DNA from: a virus
Lineage: Duplodnaviria; Caudoviricetes
DNA: 64,000 nt
Reading direction: 5' to 3' (one strand)
IMG/VR virus record: IMGVR_UViG_3300037067_018912
Coordinates: 96,001-160,000 of that record
Part shown: positions 55,965-63,907 of the stretch, piece after piece
Position numbering within the stretch: the first letter of the stretch is position 1
Layout: each line of letters begins with the position of its first letter
Program-made: the position numbers and the translations under genes
The notes under the pieces: model-generated
Database searches by the model: none
What the model was told of the DNA's origin: nothing
Seen by the model: only the letters and a program-made list of their open reading frames with translations

Positions 55965-58496
55965 TTAAAATACCAATCTTATGCATACCGCACTTCTGTC
56001 AGTACTGTTATATGTATATCGGCAGTAACCGATTGAATTTCCTTGCACCGTTTCAGTCACCGGACTTGCTGTCCAAATCGTCAATGAAGTTCCTGCCGAA
56101 CCACCCGGATATTCCCATTGACTTGAAACCGTATTCCATTGACATACTCCAACCAACGGCCTACTTGTCGGAGCACCGAGCCAAGCACATGGAATCTCGA
56201 ATTTCTGTTTATCCGGACTACTATCTGAAACCAAATTAATTTGAATATTATTCGCTGTTGACATATTTTGCAATGTCTGTTTTGTCAATGTAGTAATACC
56301 TACGGTTGTTGCAAACAATGGATACACACCAACAATAGAACCGCTTGCTGCAGATGTACAACCCGAAGGCAGTGCTGCCGAATACTGCGTGCCTTTACTA
56401 CCCAATGCCGGAAATCCTGCATCATATCTTGCACAAACACCCCATGATTGCGTTCCAATAAGAACTATATAACTTGGATTTGTTTGAGATGCTGGCGATG
56501 ATACACATGACTGAAAACCACTTGGCATTCCTGTACCTGTGAAACAATAAGCGTTTACAAAACCGCTCCTGAAAGAAGAAACCGAGCAATATTGGGGACT
56601 TATCGAACCCCTGCTGAATGTTCCTGTAACTGTTTCGGAAACAGTACATCCGATTTCGTAAAGACCCGAAGCACTCAAACCATTGCTTATTGAAGGTGGT
56701 GTTATTGAACCACACAACTCAGGCACTAATAATTCTTCAAATAATTGAAATGAAGTTTTCCCCGTCAATACAGTACCTGAACATATCCCACCAAGGGGTA
56801 TTACTGAAGGAGAACTCAAATTATAAGTCCCGCCTGCACCACCAGTTCCACCACTCGAATAAATGATTATATTGTTGCCCACAGTACTCACAATCGTATT
56901 GCCGCTTCCAACAAGAGTCCTAAATGCAAGCGTATTGCCTGTCATCCCACTAAAAACATGCTGTCCCGTGCCGATGTTTCTACCACCCGTCGCACCCGTT
57001 ATTCCTTGCGCAGTCGTTATGCCAGACAAATAAACAAAATTGTCATCATACGTCACCAAAAGTGAACTCGGACTGTTCGACACTATCGTCCTGAATCGGA
57101 GTTCTTTATATTGTTTATCACTGTAAACCGGACCTCCAAAAACATAAGTGTCACCTGTGTTTAAATTTCCATAAACATCATTGATGGTGGCGTAAGAAAG
57201 GTTGTTATAAACACTTCCAGTGATCCATTCGGTTTGAGTATATGAATTACCCGTATAACCTGTTCCATAATATCTTTGAGTAAATCCAATTGAAGTCTCA
57301 CCAACAAAATTACTGACGTCACCATCAAGGAATATCCACCCAACCTGGCTGAGAGTATCCCCTGTGTATTCATTCCACACCCAAGATTTATGTGTCGGAC
57401 TTGTGATTGGTATTGGTTGCCTCACATATCCACGTCTTAAAACACCGTGGTACGTCGGTGAACCTATTTTAATTTCACCTGTATTATCAATATAATAATA
57501 GTTGTAAAGCGAATTATACGTATGAAGAGTATCTGAATTATACGTATTGGGAACAGTACCCAAAGTTTGAACGTTAAGTCTTTGAATCCCTGTCTTACCG
57601 GAAAAGAACCCAATGTTCGTTGCCCCCGTAACTGCAGCGTCGAGATGTATCTGTGTACTTGCACTGTAATCAAGAAAATCCTGCAAACTAACACCCTCTT
57701 CAGTTCTCGATCTTCCCCAATATTGAAGGACGACCCCCTTACCTGTTTCAGTTGTTACAAGCATCGGTTTCGAAACATCCGTAAGATTCGTTGGTGGAAT
57801 GTGTGATAGTTTACCATCGAAACTCGTATATCCCGTACCAACAAAATTTGGACTGAGATAATAAACCGTGGATGCACTCAATGAATTACCACTGTAATCC
57901 ACCATGCCGTTAGTACTAACATGCCCGGCGAATGTTAAAATAAAAGTATCGCCCGTTACAGTTACAACTCCTAATGGTTCAATCAAAGCAGCCGTTGCTG
58001 AATTAACCCTAACAAAATCATTCCCATCATGTCCAATAACATCACCAAGATCAAAACCATTCGTATTTTGATAGAATTCCTTACTTATCCTTTCGCCAAT
58101 ATCATCATTATCGCCGATGGGAACAATGTGCCAATTGGCATTATCAGTCAACCCACTAACTTTTTGGTAATAAGTGTAGCCATTCCATTCCGCCAAGGTT
58201 ATGTATGTTCCACCACTTGTTTGAGGGTGGAGATGATAATACTCATTTGTCTCCAACACGTGTGCAAGCATTCCAAACCTGCGTTGGCCTATCGAAATAT
58301 CATCATAATTAAGCGGCAGGTTGAGTTGATTCACAGCCAATTCAAATGTTGGTGGAAGGGCATCCCTTTCAGCAAGCGTCTTGAACTCCATATAACCGCC
58401 GACACCAAGAACTGAATGATGAGTGCCGTATGTGTCCCCTGATGAACCCCTCACGATTGGAGAGGCTAACAACGTACCTTTGTAATATTCTGCCAT
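55965..58496 (-). CDS. Virion structural protein
   Basis: C-terminal LVPELCG...GVYP.FATT...FEIP..W...CIRLVF is shared with 53918..55954. Confidence 0.65.
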   Translation of the reverse strand: MAEYYKGTLLASPIVRGSSGDTYGTHHSVLGVGGYMEFKTLAERDALPPTFELAVNQLNLPLNYDDISIGQRRFGMLAHVLETNEYYHLHPQTSGGTYITLAEWNGYTYYQKVSGLTDNANWHIVPIGDNDDIGERISKEFYQNTNGFDLGDVIGHDGNDFVRVNSATAALIEPLGVVTVTGDTFILTFAGHVSTNGMVDYSGNSLSASTVYYLSPNFVGTGYTSFDGKLSHIPPTNLTDVSKPMLVTTETGKGVVLQYWGRSRTEEGVSLQDFLDYSASTQIHLDAAVTGATNIGFFSGKTGIQRLNVQTLGTVPNTYNSDTLHTYNSLYNYYYIDNTGEIKIGSPTYHGVLRRGYVRQPIPITSPTHKSWVWNEYTGDTLSQVGWIFLDGDVSNFVGETSIGFTQRYYGTGYTGNSYTQTEWITGSVYNNLSYATINDVYGNLNTGDTYVFGGPVYSDKQYKELRFRTIVSNSPSSLLVTYDDNFVYLSGITTAQGITGATGGRNIGTGQHVFSGMTGNTLAFRTLVGSGNTIVSTVGNNIIIYSSGGTGGAGGTYNLSSPSVIPLGGICSGTVLTGKTSFQLFEELLVPELCGSITPPSISNGLSASGLYEIGCTVSETVTGTFSRGSISPQYCSVSSFRSGFVNAYCFTGTGMPSGFQSCVSSPASQTNPSYIVLIGTQSWGVCARYDAGFPALGSKGTQYSAALPSGCTSAASGSIVGVYPLFATTVGITTLTKQTLQNMSTANNIQINLVSDSSPDKQKFEIPCAWLGAPTSRPLVGVCQWNTVSSQWEYPGGSAGTSLTIWTASPVTETVQGNSIGYCRYTYNSTDRSAVCIRLVF

Positions 58497-58508
58497 GATT
58501 ATTCTTTA

Positions 58509-59537
58509 TTAACTTACAATTATGCTGTAAACCCCCGTTATTCTGCTGTCCGACCTTGCAATATAATATTGATTGGCGTATCCACACTCATTAATGAATG
58601 TTAATGGGAACAGCGTACCCGCCAATAGACTCCCCCAAGCATTGTTTGGTAGACCGTTGATTGTGAACGATGGTGCTCCGAATGACGTGGGATATGCATA
58701 ATAGAAAAATTCATTATTGAATGTCAGCGAACAATTGAACGTCCTGCTTGTCGACAATTGACTTACTGACGAAGTACACATTGCAGCACAAGCGGTAGTG
58801 CAATTGCTTGAATAATAAGCCGTACCTGTTTTGAAATAGTATTTTTTATTCATCCATGTGATTGTTGCAGGATCAATAGCGATTTCATTTGCCGTGGTAG
58901 CAGCACTTAGATAGAATGCAACGCTTGTGGACGACGTACCTGTTGCAGGGGTCGCACCCGTAATATTAAACGTGTATGGTATAAGGCCATTCGTTGTTCC
59001 GGTTGTACCACCGGAGAATATTGTAGTATAGTAAACCCCATCTCCTCCGTCACTCGCCCTGATAACACAAACGTAATTGGTGTTCTTTATAACACTCCAA
59101 CAAAGATTGCCGTAAACACTATCCCCGAATTGCCTCGAATCACCACCAATTGGTGTTGCAATACTCAAACTCACACTCAACGGAATTGCGGGAACTAAGA
59201 TGGTTTGAAGAATACATTCGATCGTACATCCGCTTATAGCACTCCCGGTCGGTAAGCCGCCAACCGTCGTTGTGGTGGGTGACATTCCGTAATACCTACT
59301 GTCGCCAGACGCCGCCGTGGGTTCTAATGCAATTATACCACCACGGTATGTCATGACTTGGCCGTCGCTTGCAGGTGTTGCACCACTCGCTGTGATTATC
59401 ACACTACCGCTTGCCCCGTCGGAAAGGGTTAAACCACTCCACGACGAAATATTTGTCAATCCCGATAAGTTCAACTCACTGCCCGGAAGTTGTTTGAATT
59501 GAACGTCGTCTAAATTGGGTCTTGCGAAAAATGGCAT
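58509..59537 (-). CDS. Virion structural protein heading the fibre cluster
   Basis: MPFFARPNLDDVQFKQLPGSELNLSGLT N-terminal motif shared with three other cluster proteins. Confidence 0.65.
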   Translation of the reverse strand: MPFFARPNLDDVQFKQLPGSELNLSGLTNISSWSGLTLSDGASGSVIITASGATPASDGQVMTYRGGIIALEPTAASGDSRYYGMSPTTTTVGGLPTGSAISGCTIECILQTILVPAIPLSVSLSIATPIGGDSRQFGDSVYGNLCWSVIKNTNYVCVIRASDGGDGVYYTTIFSGGTTGTTNGLIPYTFNITGATPATGTSSTSVAFYLSAATTANEIAIDPATITWMNKKYYFKTGTAYYSSNCTTACAAMCTSSVSQLSTSRTFNCSLTFNNEFFYYAYPTSFGAPSFTINGLPNNAWGSLLAGTLFPLTFINECGYANQYYIARSDSRITGVYSIIVS

Positions 59538-59678: not shown

Positions 59679-59709
59679 AAAAAAACCCGTGAGATTTTTC
59701 TCACGGGTT
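59679..59709 (-). terminator. Rho-independent terminator after the VWA/ARPP operon
   Basis: Sense AACCCGUGAGA-AAAA-UCUCACGGGUUUUUUU. Confidence 0.8.
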
Positions 59710-59785
59710 CATATATTCATGACAATCGCAGACTTTACTGCCAAAACGTTTTAATTTACCGTTGAACGGTATATCGTCATTTTAT

Positions 59786-60886
59786 TTACATAGCGAACCT
59801 TTGCTGCCTACGAGCCTTGTTCCTGAGTTCATTCACTTCACGGAGTGCGTTCGGATCGAATCTCTCTCTCTTAACCACACTCACGACATGGTTGAACTCA
59901 TTCTCGGTAATGACCTGACCGATGTACCCCTCGGTTTTGAGGATGTACGACTTCGGTGCTTTACTCGCCGAGGAAGGATTTCCTTCCGCATCAAGGGTCG
60001 CATCGAAGGTCAGTTCGAGCAGTTCTTGGATTTTTTCCTGAACGCTCGCTGTCATCTTCTGCTTCGTCCTTTTCAGAGCGGCCTCAAGCAGGTCTACAAT
60101 GTTGTCACGGTAGTCCTTCTTAATTTCCTCGTATGACTGCGAGAAGTTGTTCATCGTGGACTTATTCTTCAATTCGCTGATTATTGCAAGCGAACCGTAG
60201 CAGTCACGGATCATCAAATCCCACACCTGTTCGGCGTATGTGAAGGACGGGAACTTGTCGATTGCGACGATTTCACCGTCGATCAGCACGACTATACCGA
60301 TCAGATTCTTTGGACGTTCAAAGTGTGCAATGAACTGTTCAAGTTTCTTGTCATACTTATCGAAGTAGACATTAAGATACCTTCCTGCACCGGAATTAGT
60401 ATCATGGCCAAGTTTCTCAATCGCCGGATAAATCCTGCCAAGATTATGCGGTTGGCCGACAGTGTCGAAAACCATTTCACGCATTGTTACAGGAAGCATA
60501 CGGAACTCCTGAGTACCCCTGAACGTACCACCCTGCGAACCCTGAACGCAACCTGCGTCATTGAAGGTCACGCTCGACTTTTGAGCCATGTAACCCGCCT
60601 TGGTCATACCGTGGTTCTGCGCCGACTGCTTAGTTATAACAGCCATTTGCGTGGGCACAATAATCTCCTTGTCCTCCTTGTTAGTGAAGCCAATTTGACC
60701 ATAGTTGTTGTTACCCGCAACAAGTGCAGTCATGGGATTTCCAAAACGTTCGTCCATTGAATACTCCTTATCGGTCGTCAAACAGACGATTTGCATGTTC
60801 AAAATCGATTGAACTATGATGTTGCCGTCAGCGTCCTTGACGGGACGGCATCCTTTCAGCAATTCTACGAATTCTCTCGTGTTCAT
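59786..60886 (-). CDS. ARPP-1/DUF6569-like protein
   Basis: TNKEDKEIIVP...QNH...AGCVQ and FE....IGIVVLIDGEIVAIDKFPS......W..MIRDCYG resemble the family pattern (recalled, not searched). Confidence 0.55.
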   Translation of the reverse strand: MNTREFVELLKGCRPVKDADGNIIVQSILNMQIVCLTTDKEYSMDERFGNPMTALVAGNNNYGQIGFTNKEDKEIIVPTQMAVITKQSAQNHGMTKAGYMAQKSSVTFNDAGCVQGSQGGTFRGTQEFRMLPVTMREMVFDTVGQPHNLGRIYPAIEKLGHDTNSGAGRYLNVYFDKYDKKLEQFIAHFERPKNLIGIVVLIDGEIVAIDKFPSFTYAEQVWDLMIRDCYGSLAIISELKNKSTMNNFSQSYEEIKKDYRDNIVDLLEAALKRTKQKMTASVQEKIQELLELTFDATLDAEGNPSSASKAPKSYILKTEGYIGQVITENEFNHVVSVVKRERFDPNALREVNELRNKARRQQRFAM

Positions 60887-60897
60887 AACCGTAATTA

Positions 60898-62526
60898 TTA
60901 AGCGTTTACACTAATTTTCTTCAACCTCTTGACGGGTGCTGCTTCAAGAACAGCCACCTGATTTTCAAGCCACCTCTTGGTATCGATTTCAAGCAACCTT
61001 GCGTTGATCTGTGGTTGCAGTGCGACCGGGTTGTTTATCGCCATTGTGACGACTCCAGGACCCAACTTCCTCACATTCGCACCCATTTCAGCACTGACTA
61101 TCGGCGAAATTTGGAACACCGGAATGTCCCTGCCGCTTTCAGCCTTCCAAATCGAGATGACCTCGTTGGTCATGCCGTCATAAGCATTTTCATACCCGTC
61201 AGTCAAGATAAACATCGCATCAAACGGCTTCGAAGGATTCTCCTTCTTTAACAATTCGATGAACGAAGTTGCAAGATCGGTGACCTCATCCTTGGTTCTT
61301 ACAACGATGCTTGAATTCGCAGACCTTGCAAGAACTTTCGACGTAAAGTCGGCAATCGCCCTCGGCGTGTTCTTGGATTCTTGCTTGTGACCCGTCATCG
61401 AGTTGCTCTCGTCGAGCACAACACCGATGTTTTGATAGAAGAACCCTGTGATCTTCTTGCTTTCGGCAAGTTTATCAATCGCCACACCGATTTCACGAGT
61501 GAAACCGTTTTCATACCCCGTCTTGTACAGAGCAAGGAAATCGGTTGCCTTTTCGTAATCAACCGTCTTTTCAACACCCAACTTAGCCGTCGACTTCGTC
61601 TGACGGACTTGCTGGTTGACAGACGTCACTTCGGTAGACTTCCTGATCATTGCCTTGGTCGCCTCCCTTTGGAGTTTGGTCGCCCACATAGAATGATACT
61701 GCGGATGCCTTATGTTCGAGATCAAACCCAAAAGAACTTCTTCCGGGACGGTCTTGACACCTGTAATGTCACGCCTTGCCTTTTCGTATTCACTCAACAG
61801 CGGGAATTCGACTGCACCATAATCAACACCATCATTCCTTTTCATAATAAAGAGGAAGAGTTTGAACACCTTTATTGCTTCGATGTTGGTGTATCTCAAG
61901 ATGTGTTCGTTGACAATCTTTGCTTCCTTCTCGGTGCTTATGCCGGAAGGGTACGTCAACTGCTTGCGTGCGATAGTGACCAATATGGAGGCAGTTTTTC
62001 CACCATACACGTGTCTCAACGCCTTGGCAATCTTGTTACGGTACTTCATAGCATAGAATTCAAGGTTGTCCTGACCCCAAATGTACCCAAGCATGATCTT
62101 CCTCGACCTGTCGTTGTTCACCTTTGCATCTTTCAACGCAACGAACAAACGGAGGATATACGGAAGACCGTTCTCACCGAGGTTATTCAGGGCGCAAAGA
62201 ACCGCCTTGTCGCTCAATCCATTGTCGTACCAATCGATCGGGTTGACAATATGGTTCGCACCGCCCCGTAAAGTGTTTTTAAACTCATTGAGCAACACTT
62301 CGGAGATGAATTGACCTGTAGCACCCTTTTGGTTTGCCACGATCAATGGGAGTTCCTTTGAAAGAGTATACATTTTCTTTATCTGATCCTGTACGGCCTT
62401 CAATTGTTCGTCCTTCTTGTGGTAGTAAGTTGCACTACCCTTCGCAGCACTTGCAATAGTCAATCCTTCAATCAACGATTGTCTGATCGTGCCGAGCGTC
62501 TTTTGTGTCAATACCAAATCTTTCAT
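60898..62526 (-). CDS. 542-aa protein with helical N-terminal region and C-terminal VWA domain (Ro60/TROVE-like architecture)
   Basis: MIDAS VVLDESNSM, TDLA, FILTDGYEN in the last ~180 aa; size and layout match Ro60. The VWA call is firm; TROVE homology is inferred. Confidence 0.6.
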   Translation of the reverse strand: MKDLVLTQKTLGTIRQSLIEGLTIASAAKGSATYYHKKDEQLKAVQDQIKKMYTLSKELPLIVANQKGATGQFISEVLLNEFKNTLRGGANHIVNPIDWYDNGLSDKAVLCALNNLGENGLPYILRLFVALKDAKVNNDRSRKIMLGYIWGQDNLEFYAMKYRNKIAKALRHVYGGKTASILVTIARKQLTYPSGISTEKEAKIVNEHILRYTNIEAIKVFKLFLFIMKRNDGVDYGAVEFPLLSEYEKARRDITGVKTVPEEVLLGLISNIRHPQYHSMWATKLQREATKAMIRKSTEVTSVNQQVRQTKSTAKLGVEKTVDYEKATDFLALYKTGYENGFTREIGVAIDKLAESKKITGFFYQNIGVVLDESNSMTGHKQESKNTPRAIADFTSKVLARSANSSIVVRTKDEVTDLATSFIELLKKENPSKPFDAMFILTDGYENAYDGMTNEVISIWKAESGRDIPVFQISPIVSAEMGANVRKLGPGVVTMAINNPVALQPQINARLLEIDTKRWLENQVAVLEAAPVKRLKKISVNA

Positions 62527-62616
62527 CGTACAACAATTTTAATTTACAGTTATTCAAAAATCGCATGGTAAACATACGAATATTTTATTTCAATATCAAT
62601 TAAACCCAAAAAATAA

Positions 62617-62672
62617 ACAAAAAAAATGGGCAGATCGACCGACGCATTGCTGCGCCGATTCCCCCACCCATT
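62617..62672 (-). terminator. Long hairpin plus U-tract ending the ncRNA array
   Basis: Sense AUGGGUGGGGGAAUCGGCGCA-GCAA-UGCGUCGGUCGAUCUGCCCAU then UUUUUUUUG. Confidence 0.6.
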
Positions 62673-62703
62673 TAATTATAGGAATGTTCTTCTCTTCTTC
62701 GAT

Positions 62704-62806
62704 TAAGAAGAAGTGCGGTTGTATTGTCCTGTAAGTTTGCGCCCCCTACTCGAAAGCGGGAACGTTTCATGTTTCAATCTACTGAAAACACAGCCAGTTC
62801 TTCCCT
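62704..62806 (-). ncRNA. Module RNA A (stand-alone, with GC-rich hairpin insert)
   Basis: GGGAAG-AACU-GGCUGUGUUUU-CAGUA...GACAAUACAACC-GCA-CUUCUUCUU; the ends pair and N11 pairs with the distal strand. Confidence 0.7.
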
Positions 62807-63000
62807 ATTTTTTGTTTTTTGAAAAAATACAGCACTTCTGCCGTTAAAAACCATTCTTGACCATCAAATGTTAGGCGACGTGCCCCGTTTTTTACTAAAA
62901 ACTCTGACGCCGACAACCAAAAAATTCAAGCGGTGGGGTTTGCTTGTTTGACTTAAATTATAAATCCATTCGTTTTACCCATTTACCGCTTTTATAAAAA

Positions 63001-63141
63001 GGGGAACAGTTTGAAAGTAATTTTTGTTGTATTTGCAAGTTTACGAAACTCGTGCCTTAACCAACTTGGCTATTCGTCCAATTTTGGCGGACAAAGATGG
63101 AGTCGAACCATCGTTTTACTGGAATCACTTTCAGTTTTCCC
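63001..63141 (-). ncRNA. Module RNA B: circularly permuted tRNA-like RNA (T arm, closed acceptor stem, D arm, anticodon arm CGU) inside the module helix
   Basis: GAUGG-UUCGACU-CCAUC / UUUGUCC-GCCAAAAUU-GGACGAA / UA-GCC-AAGUUGGUUAA-GGC / CGAGU-UUCGUAA-ACUUG, flanked by an 11-bp UGAAAGUGAUU:AAUUACUUUCA helix. Confidence 0.85.
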
Positions 63142-63147
63142 ATTTTG

Positions 63148-63281
63148 AGGGGAGAGCCGGGATCGAACCGACAATCAATTGTTTAATAGACAATTTGCTT
63201 TACCTTTACTGGAAACACCATTAGTTCTCCTGTTGAGGAGCAATGAGATAGTATTTTTCGTTTTTGATTTGCTATCTCCCC
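63148..63281 (-). ncRNA. Module RNA C: tRNA-like RNA (anticodon AUU) with ~60-nt module inserted in the D-loop
   Basis: Acceptor GGGGAGA:UCUCCCC; AUUGU-CUAUUAA-ACAAU; GUCGG-UUCGAUC-CCGGC. The insert carries AACU-N11-CAGUA. Confidence 0.8.
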
Positions 63282-63315
63282 TTGTAATCAATAAAAAAAG
63301 AACTCTTAAAAAATC

Positions 63316-63392
63316 AGAAGAAATTTGTTGGTTTTTGTTTTGTAGATATTGAATTTGCCTCTCAATTTACTGAAAAAACCATCAGTTCTTCC
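63316..63392 (-). ncRNA. Module RNA D (minimal stand-alone form)
   Basis: GGAAG-AACU-GAUGGUUUUUU-CAGUA, short AUUGAG:UUCAAU hairpin, then AAAAACCAACA-AAU-UUCUUC. Confidence 0.7.
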
Positions 63393-63493
63393 TCAATGCC
63401 GATATTGAATGTGGTGTCGGCCTAATTCGGCCTCGATCTTACACTGTCTATCATCAGAACCACTAAACCACTCTCATGATCTCAATATACTTG

Positions 63494-63567
63494 TAGCGGG
63501 AGAGGGATTTGAACCCTCGAACTCTTGGTTATGAGCCAAGCGAGATGCCGGACTTCTCCACCCCGCA
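63494..63567 (-). tRNA. tRNA-Met(CAU), initiator-like 1:72 mismatch, CCA not encoded
   Basis: UGCGGGG UG GAGA-AGUCCGGCA-UCUC G CUUGG-CUCAUAA-CCAAG AGUUC GAGGG-UUCAAAU-CCCUC UCCCGCU A. Confidence 0.9.
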
Positions 63568-63644
63568 ATGTGAAACGTTGATTCGGGTTCAACGTTTAAA
63601 ACCTTTACAAATTCCTTACACAAGGTAAAGAACTAAAATTTAAA

Positions 63645-63768
63645 AAGGATAGTTTGTTTGTTGTCTTGTTTTTAACAAAATCGGACTTGAACCGACAACG
63701 TACTGCTCTGAAGGCAATTCCTCTTCCAATTGAGGTATTTGTTTACTGAAACAACACTCAGTTTCCTT
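63645..63768 (-). ncRNA. Module RNA F: complete tRNA-like body (63672-63744, anticodon UCA) extended at its acceptor ends by the module
   Basis: AAACAAA UA CCUC-AAUUGGAA-GAGG A AUUGC-CUUCAGA-GCAGU ACGUU GUCGG-UUCAAGU-CCGAU UUUGUUA, inside AAGGA-AACU-N11-CAGU...AGACAACA..UCCUU. Confidence 0.8.
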
Positions 63769-63774
63769 TTTTTG

Positions 63775-63907
63775 TGGGGAGAGTCGGATTTGAACCAACA
63801 ATCAATTGTTTTACGGACAATTTGCTTTACCTATTACTGTAAACACTAATAGTTCTCCTGTTAAGGAGTATGAGATAGTATTTTCGTTTTGTTTTTGCTA
63901 TCTCCCC
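63775..63907 (-). ncRNA. Module RNA G: paralogue of RNA C (anticodon loop CCGUAAA), module in D-loop
   Basis: Diverged direct repeat of 63148-63281 with stems preserved and the anticodon changed to GUA. Confidence 0.8.

What the first reader, a model, noticed from the sequence alone, without database searches (positions are those of the whole stretch)
59786..62526. Ro60-sized VWA protein plus ARPP-1-like protein directly downstream of the RNA array
Seen: a two-gene operon (11-nt gap, shared terminator) on the same strand, ~180 nt after RNA A; the first gene has a helical N-terminus and an intact MIDAS VWA domain. Known: bacterial and phage Ro60/Rsr (TROVE + VWA, ~540 aa) genes typically neighbour their Y RNAs and RNA-repair genes. 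Inference: a divergent Ro-like ring binds the repeated RNA module, with the ARPP-1-like protein as partner or effector.
Basis: partly seen in the sequence, partly recalled or inferred. Interest (0 to 1): 0.75.

Follow-up and report, generated by a model that had tools for sequence, protein, structure and literature searches.

The report
Ro60-like ring protein with ARPP-1 partner
A giant phage carries a two-gene operon for a very diverged structural cousin of the RNA-surveillance ring protein Ro60 and an enzyme-like ARPP-1 partner. The same pair, with small "handle" RNAs that carry tRNAs or tRNA look-alikes, recurs in over 130 phage and bacterial loci, usually beside tRNA gene arrays, and looks like an undescribed branch of the Ro60/Y-RNA machines.

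Summary
On the minus strand lie a 542-aa gene (60898-62526) and a 366-aa gene (59786-60886). They are 11 nt apart and share a terminator at 59683-59710. The operon starts 179 nt after the last RNA of the upstream array.

Protein 1 has no Pfam hit, TROVE included. Its AlphaFold model (pLDDT 93.9) matches only Ro60 proteins over its full length: Xenopus Ro60 Z 18.6 with 406 residues aligned, phage phiLo Ro60 Z 15.1, Deinococcus Rsr Z 12.8. All other matches cover the VWA domain alone. The MIDAS site is essentially invariant in 120 relatives.

Protein 2 is a true ARPP-1 member with an invariant Cys, His and Gln. It has no solved structural relative.

The pair is conserved in 129 of 131 testable loci, both phage and bacterial, and one natural fusion exists. 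A two-stem "handle" RNA lies just upstream: 204 hits on the gene strand, 3 on the opposite strand, 3-8 in shuffles. In bacteria the trio sits at or inside long same-strand tRNA arrays, sometimes with a canonical Ro60 in the same array.

RNA binding and the enzyme's chemistry are untested. This scan has already found the same trio on other DNA (at least 23 genomes). I found no paper describing it.

The parts
60898..62526 (-). Gene for a 542-aa Ro60-fold protein. The helical ring is roughly residues 8-356 (about 61459-62505). The VWA/MIDAS domain is residues ~360-515 (about 60982-61449). A C-terminal helix (512-529) also falls within the range aligned to phage phiLo Ro60.
   Evidence: ORF and translation. 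AF2 model pLDDT 93.9, pTM 0.92. Only Ro60 chains match at full length. MIDAS residues D372, S374, S376, T416 and D443 are invariant or nearly so. No Pfam, PHROG or PADLOC hit.
59786..60886 (-). Gene for a 366-aa ARPP-1 family protein, the obligate partner and a probable enzyme.
   Evidence: Pfam PF20208 at E 3.5e-11. Invariant in 54 partners: Q26, Y62, Q90, H92, C113, E190, R227, Y230. AF2 model pLDDT 90. No solved relative. Found directly downstream of the Ro-like gene in 129 of 131 loci with enough sequence.
59683..59710 (-). Intrinsic terminator that closes the two-gene operon.
   Evidence: 12-bp stem with 6 G-C pairs, followed by a T run.
62616..62673 (-). Intrinsic terminator (long hairpin plus U8) between the RNA array and the Ro-like gene.
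   Evidence: Minimum-free-energy and centroid folds of 62610-62810.
62706..62804 (-). RNA A, the handle RNA nearest the operon. Layout: stem I, ACU loop, stem II, UCAG, then a 56-nt cargo.
   Evidence: Strict descriptor hit. AACTG-N10-CAGTA motif at 62780-62799. The fold pairs the same strands.
63316..63392 (-). Handle RNA with a short hairpin cargo.
   Evidence: Strict descriptor hit. Motif at 63368-63387.
63644..63769 (-). Handle RNA carrying a whole tRNA cloverleaf with anticodon UCA (tRNA call at 63671-63745).
   Evidence: Strict descriptor hit. tRNA called by ARAGORN and Rfam. The anticodon is the most variable position among orthologues in related phages.
63493..63567 (-). Free-standing tRNA-Met(CAU) inside the RNA array. 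It is conserved upstream of the pair in most related phages.
62704..63907 (-). The whole upstream RNA array. It holds at least four exact AACTG-N10-CAGTA modules, two variant copies seen by eye, and partial tRNA-like matches.
   Evidence: Pattern search gave 7 matches where 0.72 were expected, four of them here on the minus strand. Sub-threshold tRNA matches at 63012-63079, 63156-63210 and 63782-63834. Sequence read.

Best explanation
The operon encodes the two protein subunits of a Ro60/Y-RNA-like ribonucleoprotein that accompanies tRNA genes.

Shown. Protein 1 has the Ro60 architecture, a positively charged helical ring closed by a VWA domain with a complete metal site. Protein 2 is an ARPP-1 enzyme-like protein that is always encoded next to it, often with overlapping stop and start codons, and once fused to it. 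Just upstream lie small RNAs that share one handle: a terminal stem, an internal loop with conserved ACU, a second stem, and a conserved YCAG junction. The handle carries variable cargo: a hairpin, a tRNA look-alike or a whole tRNA. The trio is conserved from giant phages to Planctomycetota and Myxococcota chromosomes, where it sits at or inside long mobile tRNA arrays.

Inferred. The ring binds the RNA handle, as Ro60 binds the conserved stem of Y RNAs. ARPP-1 docks on the ring, probably at the VWA metal site, and is the catalytic effector through its invariant Cys113, His92 and Gln residues. The tRNA-shaped cargo recruits tRNA-recognising factors or mimics the substrate. The particle would then inspect, repair or shield tRNAs in conflicts over tRNA, such as anticodon nucleases or RNA-modifying toxins, in support of the supernumerary tRNA sets.
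For: Fold. The AF2 model has pLDDT 93.9 and pTM 0.92. All 12 significant Foldseek hits are Ro60. VIA gives Z 18.6 with rmsd 4.4 A over 406 residues for Xenopus Ro60, 15.1 for phiLo Ro60 and 12.8 for Rsr; VWA-only matches reach at most 11.7. For scale, accepted Ro60 structures differ from each other by 5.8-6.5 A (PMC12135203). Viral models give Ro-like and TROVE proteins as top hits. The nearest named protein-language-model clusters are TROVE. hhalign against 13 Ro60 sequences gives probability 92.8%, E 4e-7, over the pre-VWA helix and the VWA domain. The MIDAS site is invariant and the ring has net charge +15.

Coupling. ARPP-1 lies downstream in 129 of 131 loci. The modal gap is 11 nt and overlaps of -4 and -14 are common. 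P0267 (884 aa) is a natural fusion. In 201 Planctomycetota genomes, all three strong Ro-like hits have ARPP-1 adjacent.

RNA. The handle descriptor gives 204 hits on the gene strand, 3 on the opposite strand and 3-8 in shuffles. Nearly all lie within 3 kb upstream. It is present in 67 of 70 close phage loci, 8 of 9 distant phage loci, and 22 of 59 bacterial loci under the strict rule or 41 of 47 under the relaxed rule. Stem sequences differ between loci while staying complementary.

tRNA context. 39 of 59 bacterial loci carry same-strand tRNAs, up to 27, and none carries a tRNA on the opposite strand. HNH genes and canonical Ro60 genes occur in the same arrays.

The anticodon of the handle-mounted tRNA is the most variable part among close phages.

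Known precedent: Ro60 with YrlA tRNA mimics, and the rsr-yrlBA-rtcBA operon that responds to damaged tRNA (PMC4201824, PMC7790460).
Against: There is no experimental evidence that the ring binds RNA, that ARPP-1 binds the ring, or that ARPP-1 is an enzyme.

The ring shows no detectable sequence similarity to TROVE. Pfam finds nothing in P0001 or in 68 relatives, and a profile search of PDB sequences finds no Ro60.

The RNA handle lacks the known Ro60-binding motifs (GGUCCGA, GNCGAAN0-1G), and Rfam YrlA scores 18 bits against a threshold of 69.

In this phage a terminator separates the RNAs from the genes. The phage's 58 ordinary tRNAs lie 90 kb away with no handle.

Some bacterial loci have the pair but no detectable handle RNA.

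The descriptor requires base pairing, so the covariation I list is not an independent test. Only the strand and shuffle controls are.
Confidence: 0.72

Rival explanations
1. The shared handle is only a processing or stability element of tRNA-array transcripts, for example a site for RNase III, P or Z. On this view the VWA/ARPP-1 pair is a protein-only conflict module that rides on the same mobile islands and does not touch these RNAs.
For: ARPP-1 proteins occur in many other conflict contexts without such RNAs. 69 of 201 Planctomycetota genomes have ARPP-1, and none of the top 30 loci lies next to a Ro-like gene (PMC9503650). In the window a terminator separates the RNAs from the genes. Mobile islands do gather unrelated cargo, such as HNH genes.
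Against: The handle RNAs track the gene pair, not tRNA arrays in general. None of the phage's 58 array tRNAs has a handle. Handles cluster within 3 kb upstream of the pair in phages that have almost no other tRNAs there. The only fold relatives of the ring are RNA-binding Ro60 proteins that partner exactly this kind of stem-plus-tRNA-mimic RNA (PMC4201824).
Confidence: 0.12
2. It is simply a fast-evolving orthologue of canonical Ro60/Rsr doing the known job: Y RNA tethers it to PNPase for degradation of structured RNA. ARPP-1 would be an incidental neighbour.
For: The architecture and MIDAS site match Ro60. Phage Ro60 with Yrl RNAs forms RYPER-like complexes (PMC12135203).
Against: ARPP-1 is present in 129 of 131 loci and once fused, so it is not incidental. 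Canonical Ro60 (TROVE plus vWA_Ro60) co-occurs with the pair in the same Myxococcota arrays, so the two are not interchangeable. The RNA motif differs from Y RNA motifs. No TROVE signature is detectable.
Confidence: 0.08
3. The pair acts on DNA or on the mobility and maintenance of tRNA-array islands, or on virion assembly as a VWA co-chaperone, rather than on RNA.
For: In the window the operon lies next to fibre and structural genes. HNH homing endonucleases are frequent neighbours and are even inserted between the two genes. VWA proteins act as assembly co-chaperones in some phages (PMC7824862).
Against: No AAA+/MoxR partner lies nearby. The bacterial copies are chromosomal and are not next to virion genes. 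The full-length fold match is to Ro60 only.
Confidence: 0.05

Closest known systems
Bacterial Ro60 (Rsr) with YrlA/YrlB or Yrn1 Y RNAs (Salmonella rsr-yrlBA-rtcBA, M. smegmatis, D. radiodurans RYPER; PDB 2NVO; PMC4201824, PMC7790460)
   Same: It is a single chain with a helical ring plus a C-terminal VWA domain with a MIDAS site. The gene lies next to small RNAs whose ends form a long stem and whose middle mimics tRNA. It is linked to tRNA damage and repair biology.
   Different: No TROVE or vWA_Ro60 Pfam signature is detectable. The RNA handle motif is ACU...YCAG, not GNCGAAN0-1G. The obligate partner is ARPP-1, not RtcB/RtcA or PNPase. The cargo can be a complete tRNA. The system sits in tRNA arrays and can co-occur with a canonical Ro60.
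Thermus phage phiLo Ro60 with Yrl1/Yrl2 (PDB 9KOP, 9L5Y; PMC12135203)
   Same: It is phage-encoded. The fold match is Z 15.1 over 401 residues and the aligned range (model 12-530) reaches the C-terminal helix. Y-like RNAs are encoded in the same genome.
   Different: phiLo Ro60 is recognisable as TROVE and was assayed with PNPase. No ARPP-1 partner and no handle of this type is reported for it.
Xenopus/human Ro60 with Y RNAs and misfolded RNAs (PDB 1YVP, 2I91, 9NF8)
   Same: This is the best structural match: Z 18.2-18.6, rmsd 4.4-4.5 A, 406-408 residues aligned.
   Different: Sequence identity is only 13-15%. There is no tRNA-like cargo in metazoan Y RNAs, and the partners differ (La, Ro52).
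ARPP domain proteins of ARG-centred ADP-ribose conflict systems (Pfam PF20208/PF22549; Iyer, Burroughs, Anantharaman and Aravind 2022, PMC9503650)
   Same: Protein 2 matches the family above threshold and keeps the diagnostic invariant Cys and Gln.
   Different: The published contexts are ARG/macro/NADAR systems, HIRAN, WYL and deacetylase pairs. A Ro60-like/VWA partner and a tRNA-array context are not listed there. The partners here form their own subfamily: generic ARPP-1 proteins score only E 1e-4 to 1e-8 against the partner profile.
Long horizontally transferred tRNA arrays (L-arrays; Santamaria-Gomez et al. 2021, PMC8421152)
   Same: The bacterial copies of the pair lie in or at the 3' end of long same-strand tRNA arrays with HNH endonuclease genes, as described for L-arrays.
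   Different: That paper names HNH, RtcB and DpsA as neighbours. Its text contains no mention of VWA, Ro60 or TROVE. In the window itself the main tRNA arrays are 90 kb away.

Membership tests
Ro60/Rsr (TROVE + VWA) | One chain with a helical (HEAT-like) ring followed by a VWA domain that closes it | tested here: met
   AF2 model pLDDT 93.9. Ro60 chains are the only full-length matches: Z 18.6, 15.1 and 12.8 with about 400 residues aligned.
Ro60/Rsr (TROVE + VWA) | Sequence signature of Pfam TROVE (PF05731) and vWA_Ro60 (PF25045) | tested here: not met
   No hit at E<=1 in P0001. No hit at E<=0.01 in 68 relatives. No TROVE match in the whole phage genome. hhalign against Ro60 profiles aligns only residues 344-467, at probability 72-93%.
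Ro60/Rsr (TROVE + VWA) | Complete MIDAS metal site in the VWA domain | tested here: met
   D372 in 120/120, S374 in 119, S376 in 119, T416 in 105 as T plus 13 as S, D443 in 120/120. These align with the Ro60 DxSxS, GGT and TD motifs.
Ro60/Rsr (TROVE + VWA) | Adjacent Y RNA with the known Ro60-binding motif (GGUCCGA or GNCGAAN0-1G), or a match to Rfam Y_RNA/YrlA | tested here: not met
   No Y_RNA or YrlA match at gathering score in the window or in 27 related loci. The best YrlA score is 18.3 bits against 69. The handle motif is ACU...YCAG.
Ro60/Rsr (TROVE + VWA) | Neighbouring small RNAs with a terminal stem and a tRNA-like module (YrlA-type architecture) | tested here: met
   204 handle RNAs on the gene strand against 3-8 in controls, many carrying tRNA or tRNA-like cargo.
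Ro60/Rsr (TROVE + VWA) | Binds Y RNA on the ring surface and single-stranded RNA ends in the central cavity | not testable with these tools
   This needs EMSA, RIP-seq or a solved structure. Only a net charge of +15 on the ring was computed.
ARPP-1 (PF20208) | Match to the family profile above the curated cut-off | tested here: met
   43.4 bits against a cut-off of 27, E 3.5e-11. Partners in other loci reach E 6e-25 to 9e-30, with ARPP-2 co-hits.
ARPP-1 (PF20208) | Absolutely conserved Cys and Gln proposed as the catalytic centre (PMC9503650) | tested here: met
   C113, Q26 and Q90 are invariant, and Q115 and Q118 are at least 90% conserved, in 54 partners. H92, E190 and R227 are also invariant.
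Long tRNA arrays (L-arrays) | The gene lies within or beside a dense same-strand array of many tRNA genes | tested here: not met
   For the window itself only tRNA-Met and one handle-mounted tRNA are adjacent, and the phage's 58 other tRNAs lie at 249-283 kb. For the bacterial homologues the feature is met: up to 27 tRNAs, in 39 of 59 loci.
MoxR-VWA or other VWA co-chaperone pairs | An AAA+ ATPase partner encoded next to the VWA protein | tested here: not met
   The neighbours are ARPP-1, a 342-aa protein without a Pfam hit, and fibre-like proteins. No recurrent AAA+ neighbour appears in 68 loci.

The most novel reading that the evidence does not exclude
The handle RNAs are swappable baits. 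The ring holds a constant handle while the displayed tRNA or tRNA mimic, whose anticodon changes fastest between related phages, draws in anticodon-loop-targeting nucleases or RNA-modifying toxins. The ring-bound ARPP-1 then reverses or traps the damage through its Cys-His-Gln centre, for example by removing a ribose or ADP-ribose-type adduct. That would be a new enzymatic RNA-repair or decoy particle that protects mobile tRNA sets in phage-host conflicts.
Probability: 0.2. Interest if true: 0.9.

Novelty: new variant of a known kind. Interest (0 to 1): 0.78.

Why it matters
Ro60 and Y RNAs form a conserved RNA-surveillance system, and Ro60 is a major human autoantigen. Its bacterial functions are known from only a few species.

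This is a second, sequence-invisible branch of that architecture with three new features. It has an obligate enzyme-like partner (ARPP-1) of unknown chemistry and without a solved fold. It has a distinct RNA handle that can carry complete tRNAs. It is tightly linked to horizontally mobile tRNA arrays in phages and bacteria, and what keeps those arrays functional is an open question.

The system gives the ARPP domain a testable RNA-centred context. It gives tRNA-array biology a candidate dedicated protein machine. Cultured hosts carry it, including Minicystis rosea and Rhodopirellula, Novipirellula, Stieleria and Thalassoglobus strains, so it can be tested directly.

Tried and rejected
- A profile search of PDB sequences with the 120-member alignment found only weak VWA hits (CLCA1, CobT) and no Ro60.
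- Pfam, PHROGs and PADLOC gave nothing for protein 1. The PADLOC Csf3 hit for protein 2 (E 0.004) was treated as noise.
- hhalign against 5 and then 13 Ro60 sequences aligned only the VWA part. The last homologue search, meant to deepen the Ro60 profile, returned only sequences at least 67% identical to the query, so it added little.
- The ARPP-1 model had no Foldseek match at E<=0.001. The best VIA Z in a search of 48,161 chains was 4.4. This does not show that the fold is new.
- The short 5' handle motif, searched in five whole bacterial genomes, occurred at the same rate as the reversed control, so it is uninformative on its own.
- The relaxed RNA descriptor has a high background: 146 opposite-strand hits against 428 on the gene strand. 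It is used only with that caveat.
- A fixed-offset alignment of RNA A orthologues was abandoned. The RNA's distance from the gene varies and ORFs are inserted in many relatives.
- Burroughs and Aravind 2016 (NAR) and the 2020 Ro60 review were not held. I cannot exclude that they mention this family.
- No residue-level structural superposition was possible, so the equivalence of the conserved ring residues (N137, N138, R140, Y162, K165, H172) to Ro60's RNA-binding residues is untested.
Full report
**Setting.** The window is bases 96001-160000 of a complete 357,275-bp virus genome with direct terminal repeats. It is a giant phage. Nearly all genes are on the minus strand, with very long ORFs and fibre or structural genes just downstream of the finding. 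The genome holds 60 tRNA genes and a tmRNA. Fifty-eight of the tRNAs lie in arrays at 249-283 kb on the plus strand.

**Observation.** Two ORFs lie on the minus strand. 60898-62526 encodes 542 aa (P0001) and 59786-60886 encodes 366 aa (P0002). They are 11 nt apart. A 12-bp-stem intrinsic terminator lies at 59710-59683. The nearest upstream RNA (RNA A, 62706-62804) ends 179 nt before the ATG. A second strong hairpin plus U8 at about 62673-62616 lies between RNA A and the gene. The RNAs and the genes are therefore probably separate transcription units in this phage.

**Protein 1, sequence level.** It has no hit in Pfam (E<=1), PHROGs or PADLOC. It belongs to a large family: 322 clusters at 50% identity reach E<=0.001 in 1.8 billion representatives. 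A 120-member alignment (A1) has an essentially invariant VWA metal site: D372, S374, S376, T416 and D443, the last within an SDGYEN motif. It also has conserved ring residues: N137, N138, R140, Y162, K165 and H172. None of 68 scanned members hits TROVE or vWA_Ro60. A few hit generic VWA models weakly. A profile search of PDB sequences finds only weak VWA hits. The whole phage genome has no TROVE match.

**Protein 1, fold level.** AlphaFold2 on A1 gives pLDDT 93.9 and pTM 0.92. Helices span residues 8-356, an alpha/beta domain spans 366-510, and a C-terminal helix spans 512-529.
- Foldseek against the PDB gives 12 hits at E<=0.001. All are Ro60/TROVE chains aligned end to end: Xenopus and human Ro60, Deinococcus Rsr and Thermus phage phiLo Ro60. 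The next hit is at E 0.018 and is unrelated.
- VIA-align gives Z 18.6, rmsd 4.4 A over 406 residues (model 16-511 against chain 28-537) for 2I91. It gives 15.1 for phiLo Ro60 and 12.8 for Rsr. Everything below these covers the VWA domain only (Z at most 11.4, at most 171 residues).
- A search that does not rely on Foldseek, over 48,161 representative chains, ranks the three Ro60 representatives first. No other protein aligns to the ring.
- For scale, accepted Ro60 structures differ from one another by 5.8-6.5 A (PMC12135203).
- Viral predicted structures give a "Ro-like RNA binding protein" of Gordonia phage VanLee, TROVE proteins and DUF2828/DUF7788 proteins.
- A protein-language-model search gives TROVE clusters as the nearest named ones, score 0.94. 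This is a lead only.
- Profile-profile comparison with 13 Ro60 sequences reaches 92.8% probability (E 4e-7), but only over residues 344-467, the helix before the VWA domain and the VWA domain itself.

Protein 1 therefore has the Ro60 architecture and probably shares ancestry with Ro60, but it fails the family's sequence definition.

**Protein 2.** It hits Pfam ARPP-1 at 43.4 bits against a cut-off of 27. The ARPP domain was defined by Iyer, Burroughs, Anantharaman and Aravind (PMC9503650). They describe it as a probable enzyme with an absolutely conserved Cys and Gln, predict that it acts on ribose or ADP-ribose moieties, and list four contexts: ARG-centred systems, HIRAN, WYL and deacetylase pairs. 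In 54 partners of Ro-like genes, Q26, Y62, Q90, H92, C113, E190, R227 and Y230 are invariant. The AF2 model (pLDDT 90) has no solved relative. Foldseek finds nothing at E<=0.001, and the best VIA Z over 48,161 chains is 4.4.

**The pair is a unit.** I examined 80 viral loci and 62 bacterial or archaeal-labelled loci found with A1, plus one 462-kb phage.
- An ARPP-1 homologue lies directly downstream on the same strand in 129 of 131 loci with enough sequence.
- The modal gap is 11 nt, and overlaps of 4 or 14 nt are common.
- This holds down to 24-30% identity.
- One database protein, P0267 (884 aa), is a fusion of the two.
- In 201 sampled Planctomycetota genomes ARPP-1 is common (69 genomes), but none of the 30 best-scoring copies lies next to a Ro-like gene. 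Those copies score only E 1e-4 to 1e-8 against the partner profile.
- The Ro-like family is rare there (5 genomes), and all three strong hits have ARPP-1 adjacent.

The partners are therefore a dedicated ARPP-1 subfamily.

**The RNAs travel with the pair.** The whole window has 7 matches where 0.72 are expected. Reading the intergenic DNA of distant phage and bacterial loci showed the same element in a more general form. The layout is:
1. a terminal stem;
2. a 5' loop with ACU;
3. a second 6-bp stem;
4. a YCAG junction;
5. variable cargo;
6. the 3' strands of both stems, separated by a loop that often holds AAC.

A descriptor for this layout gives 204 hits on the gene strand, 3 on the opposite strand and 3-8 in shuffles, over 1.28 Mb. 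Nearly all hits lie within 3 kb upstream of the Ro-like gene. It is found in 67 of 70 close phage loci and 8 of 9 distant phage loci. In bacteria it is found in 22 of 59 loci under the strict rule, and in 41 of 47 under a relaxed rule that has roughly 25% chance background.

Stem sequences differ from locus to locus while staying complementary, for example GTCAAT/ATTGAC, GAGCAA/TTGCTC and GGCCAG/CTGGCC. Because the descriptor requires pairing, only the strand and shuffle controls are independent evidence. In the phage genome the three strict hits next to the operon are 62706-62804, 63316-63392 and 63644-63769. None of the 58 array tRNAs is handle-mounted.

Cargo ranges from a short hairpin to a full tRNA cloverleaf. 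Among 36 distinct handle-mounted tRNAs of related phages, the handle and the D and T arms are conserved, while the anticodon triplet is the most variable part. Rfam finds no Y_RNA or YrlA at threshold; the best YrlA score is 18.3 bits against 69. The handle does not contain the published Ro60-binding motifs GGUCCGA or GNCGAAN0-1G (PMC4201824).

**tRNA arrays.** In bacterial chromosomes the pair lies at the 3' end of, or inside, long same-strand tRNA arrays. These include Rhodopirellula, Novipirellula, Stieleria, Thalassoglobus, Minicystis rosea and Pseudohongiella.
- 39 of 59 loci have same-strand tRNAs within the flanks, up to 27 upstream. The mean is 5.5 upstream and 1.6 downstream. None has a tRNA on the opposite strand.
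- HNH endonuclease genes lie in the same arrays, as described for horizontally transferred L-arrays (PMC8421152). The text of that paper does not mention VWA, Ro60 or TROVE.
- In six Myxococcota loci a Ro60 that Pfam recognises (TROVE, and vWA_Ro60 where scanned) sits in the same array as the Ro-like/ARPP-1 pair. The two ring proteins are therefore not interchangeable.
- In phages a tRNA-Met(CAU) is almost always present upstream.

**How it most likely works.** What is shown: a Ro60-fold protein with an intact metal site, a dedicated enzyme-like partner, and handle RNAs with tRNA-type cargo are inherited together across phages and several bacterial phyla, usually with tRNA arrays. What is inferred, by analogy with Ro60/Y RNA (Y RNA binds the ring and tethers an effector; YrlA mimics tRNA; the Salmonella operon responds to damaged tRNA, PMC7790460):
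- the ring binds the handle;
- ARPP-1 docks on the ring, plausibly at the MIDAS site, and supplies catalysis;
- the cargo recruits tRNA-recognising factors or mimics the substrate.

The biological role is most likely surveillance, repair or shielding of tRNAs in conflicts over tRNA. I put 0.72 on the three-part RNP reading and about 0.5 on the tRNA-conflict role. The chemistry of ARPP-1 is unknown.

**Rivals.**
- The handle is only a processing signal and the proteins are unrelated cargo (0.12). Against this, handles track the pair and not tRNA arrays in general.
- It is an ordinary Ro60 with an incidental neighbour (0.08). Against this are the near-universal coupling, the fusion and the co-occurrence with canonical Ro60.
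- It has a DNA-mobility or virion-assembly role (0.05). Against this are the chromosomal bacterial copies and the absence of an AAA+ partner.

**Novelty.** I found no paper in the held library that links ARPP-1, a Ro60-like VWA protein and tRNA arrays. Two relevant papers were not held. This scan has already reported the same trio on other DNA: 35 notes in at least 23 genomes, and notes on this same genome. My results agree with them. The tRNA-array link, the fold result and the pair conservation were obtained here before I read those summaries. I class it as a new variant of a known kind, the Ro60/Y-RNA particles.

Noticed in passing
L098 (Minicystis rosea CP016211.1) and L146:1378-3075; L097:8795-10564; L114:7673-9355; L121:9420-11141: A Pfam-recognisable Ro60 (TROVE, plus vWA_Ro60 in the three scanned) lies in the same tRNA array as the Ro-like/ARPP-1 pair in several Myxococcota. 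The arrays can therefore carry two different Ro-type ring proteins.
   Followed up: partly
L004:5758-6174 (also L010-L013, L021, L022, L064, L076; gap of 544-571 nt): In some related phages an HNH_3 homing-endonuclease gene is inserted between the Ro-like and ARPP-1 genes. This splits the usual 11-nt junction.
   Followed up: partly
G000 C1:249256-282981 (outside the window): The phage encodes 58 further tRNAs covering most anticodons, a tmRNA (257755-258118) and a putative tRNA with a CUA anticodon. All are on the plus strand, about 90 kb from the Ro-like operon, and none has a handle.
   Followed up: partly
L119:1139-1577 and L119:7302-7520: A 204-kb contig labelled Bacteroidales that carries the pair also holds a GOLLD RNA (165 bits) and a group I intron beside its tRNAs. 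It is probably a phage contig.
   Followed up: no
window 63671-63745 and its orthologues in L003-L076: The anticodon of the handle-mounted tRNA differs between closely related phages. Examples are UCA, CGU, GUC, UGA, CAA, UCU, UUC, UUU, UUA, GCU, GUU, ACA, CGC, CCU and UAU. The rest of the RNA is conserved.
   Followed up: yes
window 55965-59537 (-): The two genes just downstream of the operon (843 aa and 342 aa) have no Pfam or PHROG hit. The next genes carry fibre or head-decoration-like domains.
   Followed up: partly
L143, L144: These are more distant Ro-like homologues (E about 1e-75 against the family profile) without a detectable ARPP-1 gene downstream. They may form a sister family with a different partner.
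   Followed up: no
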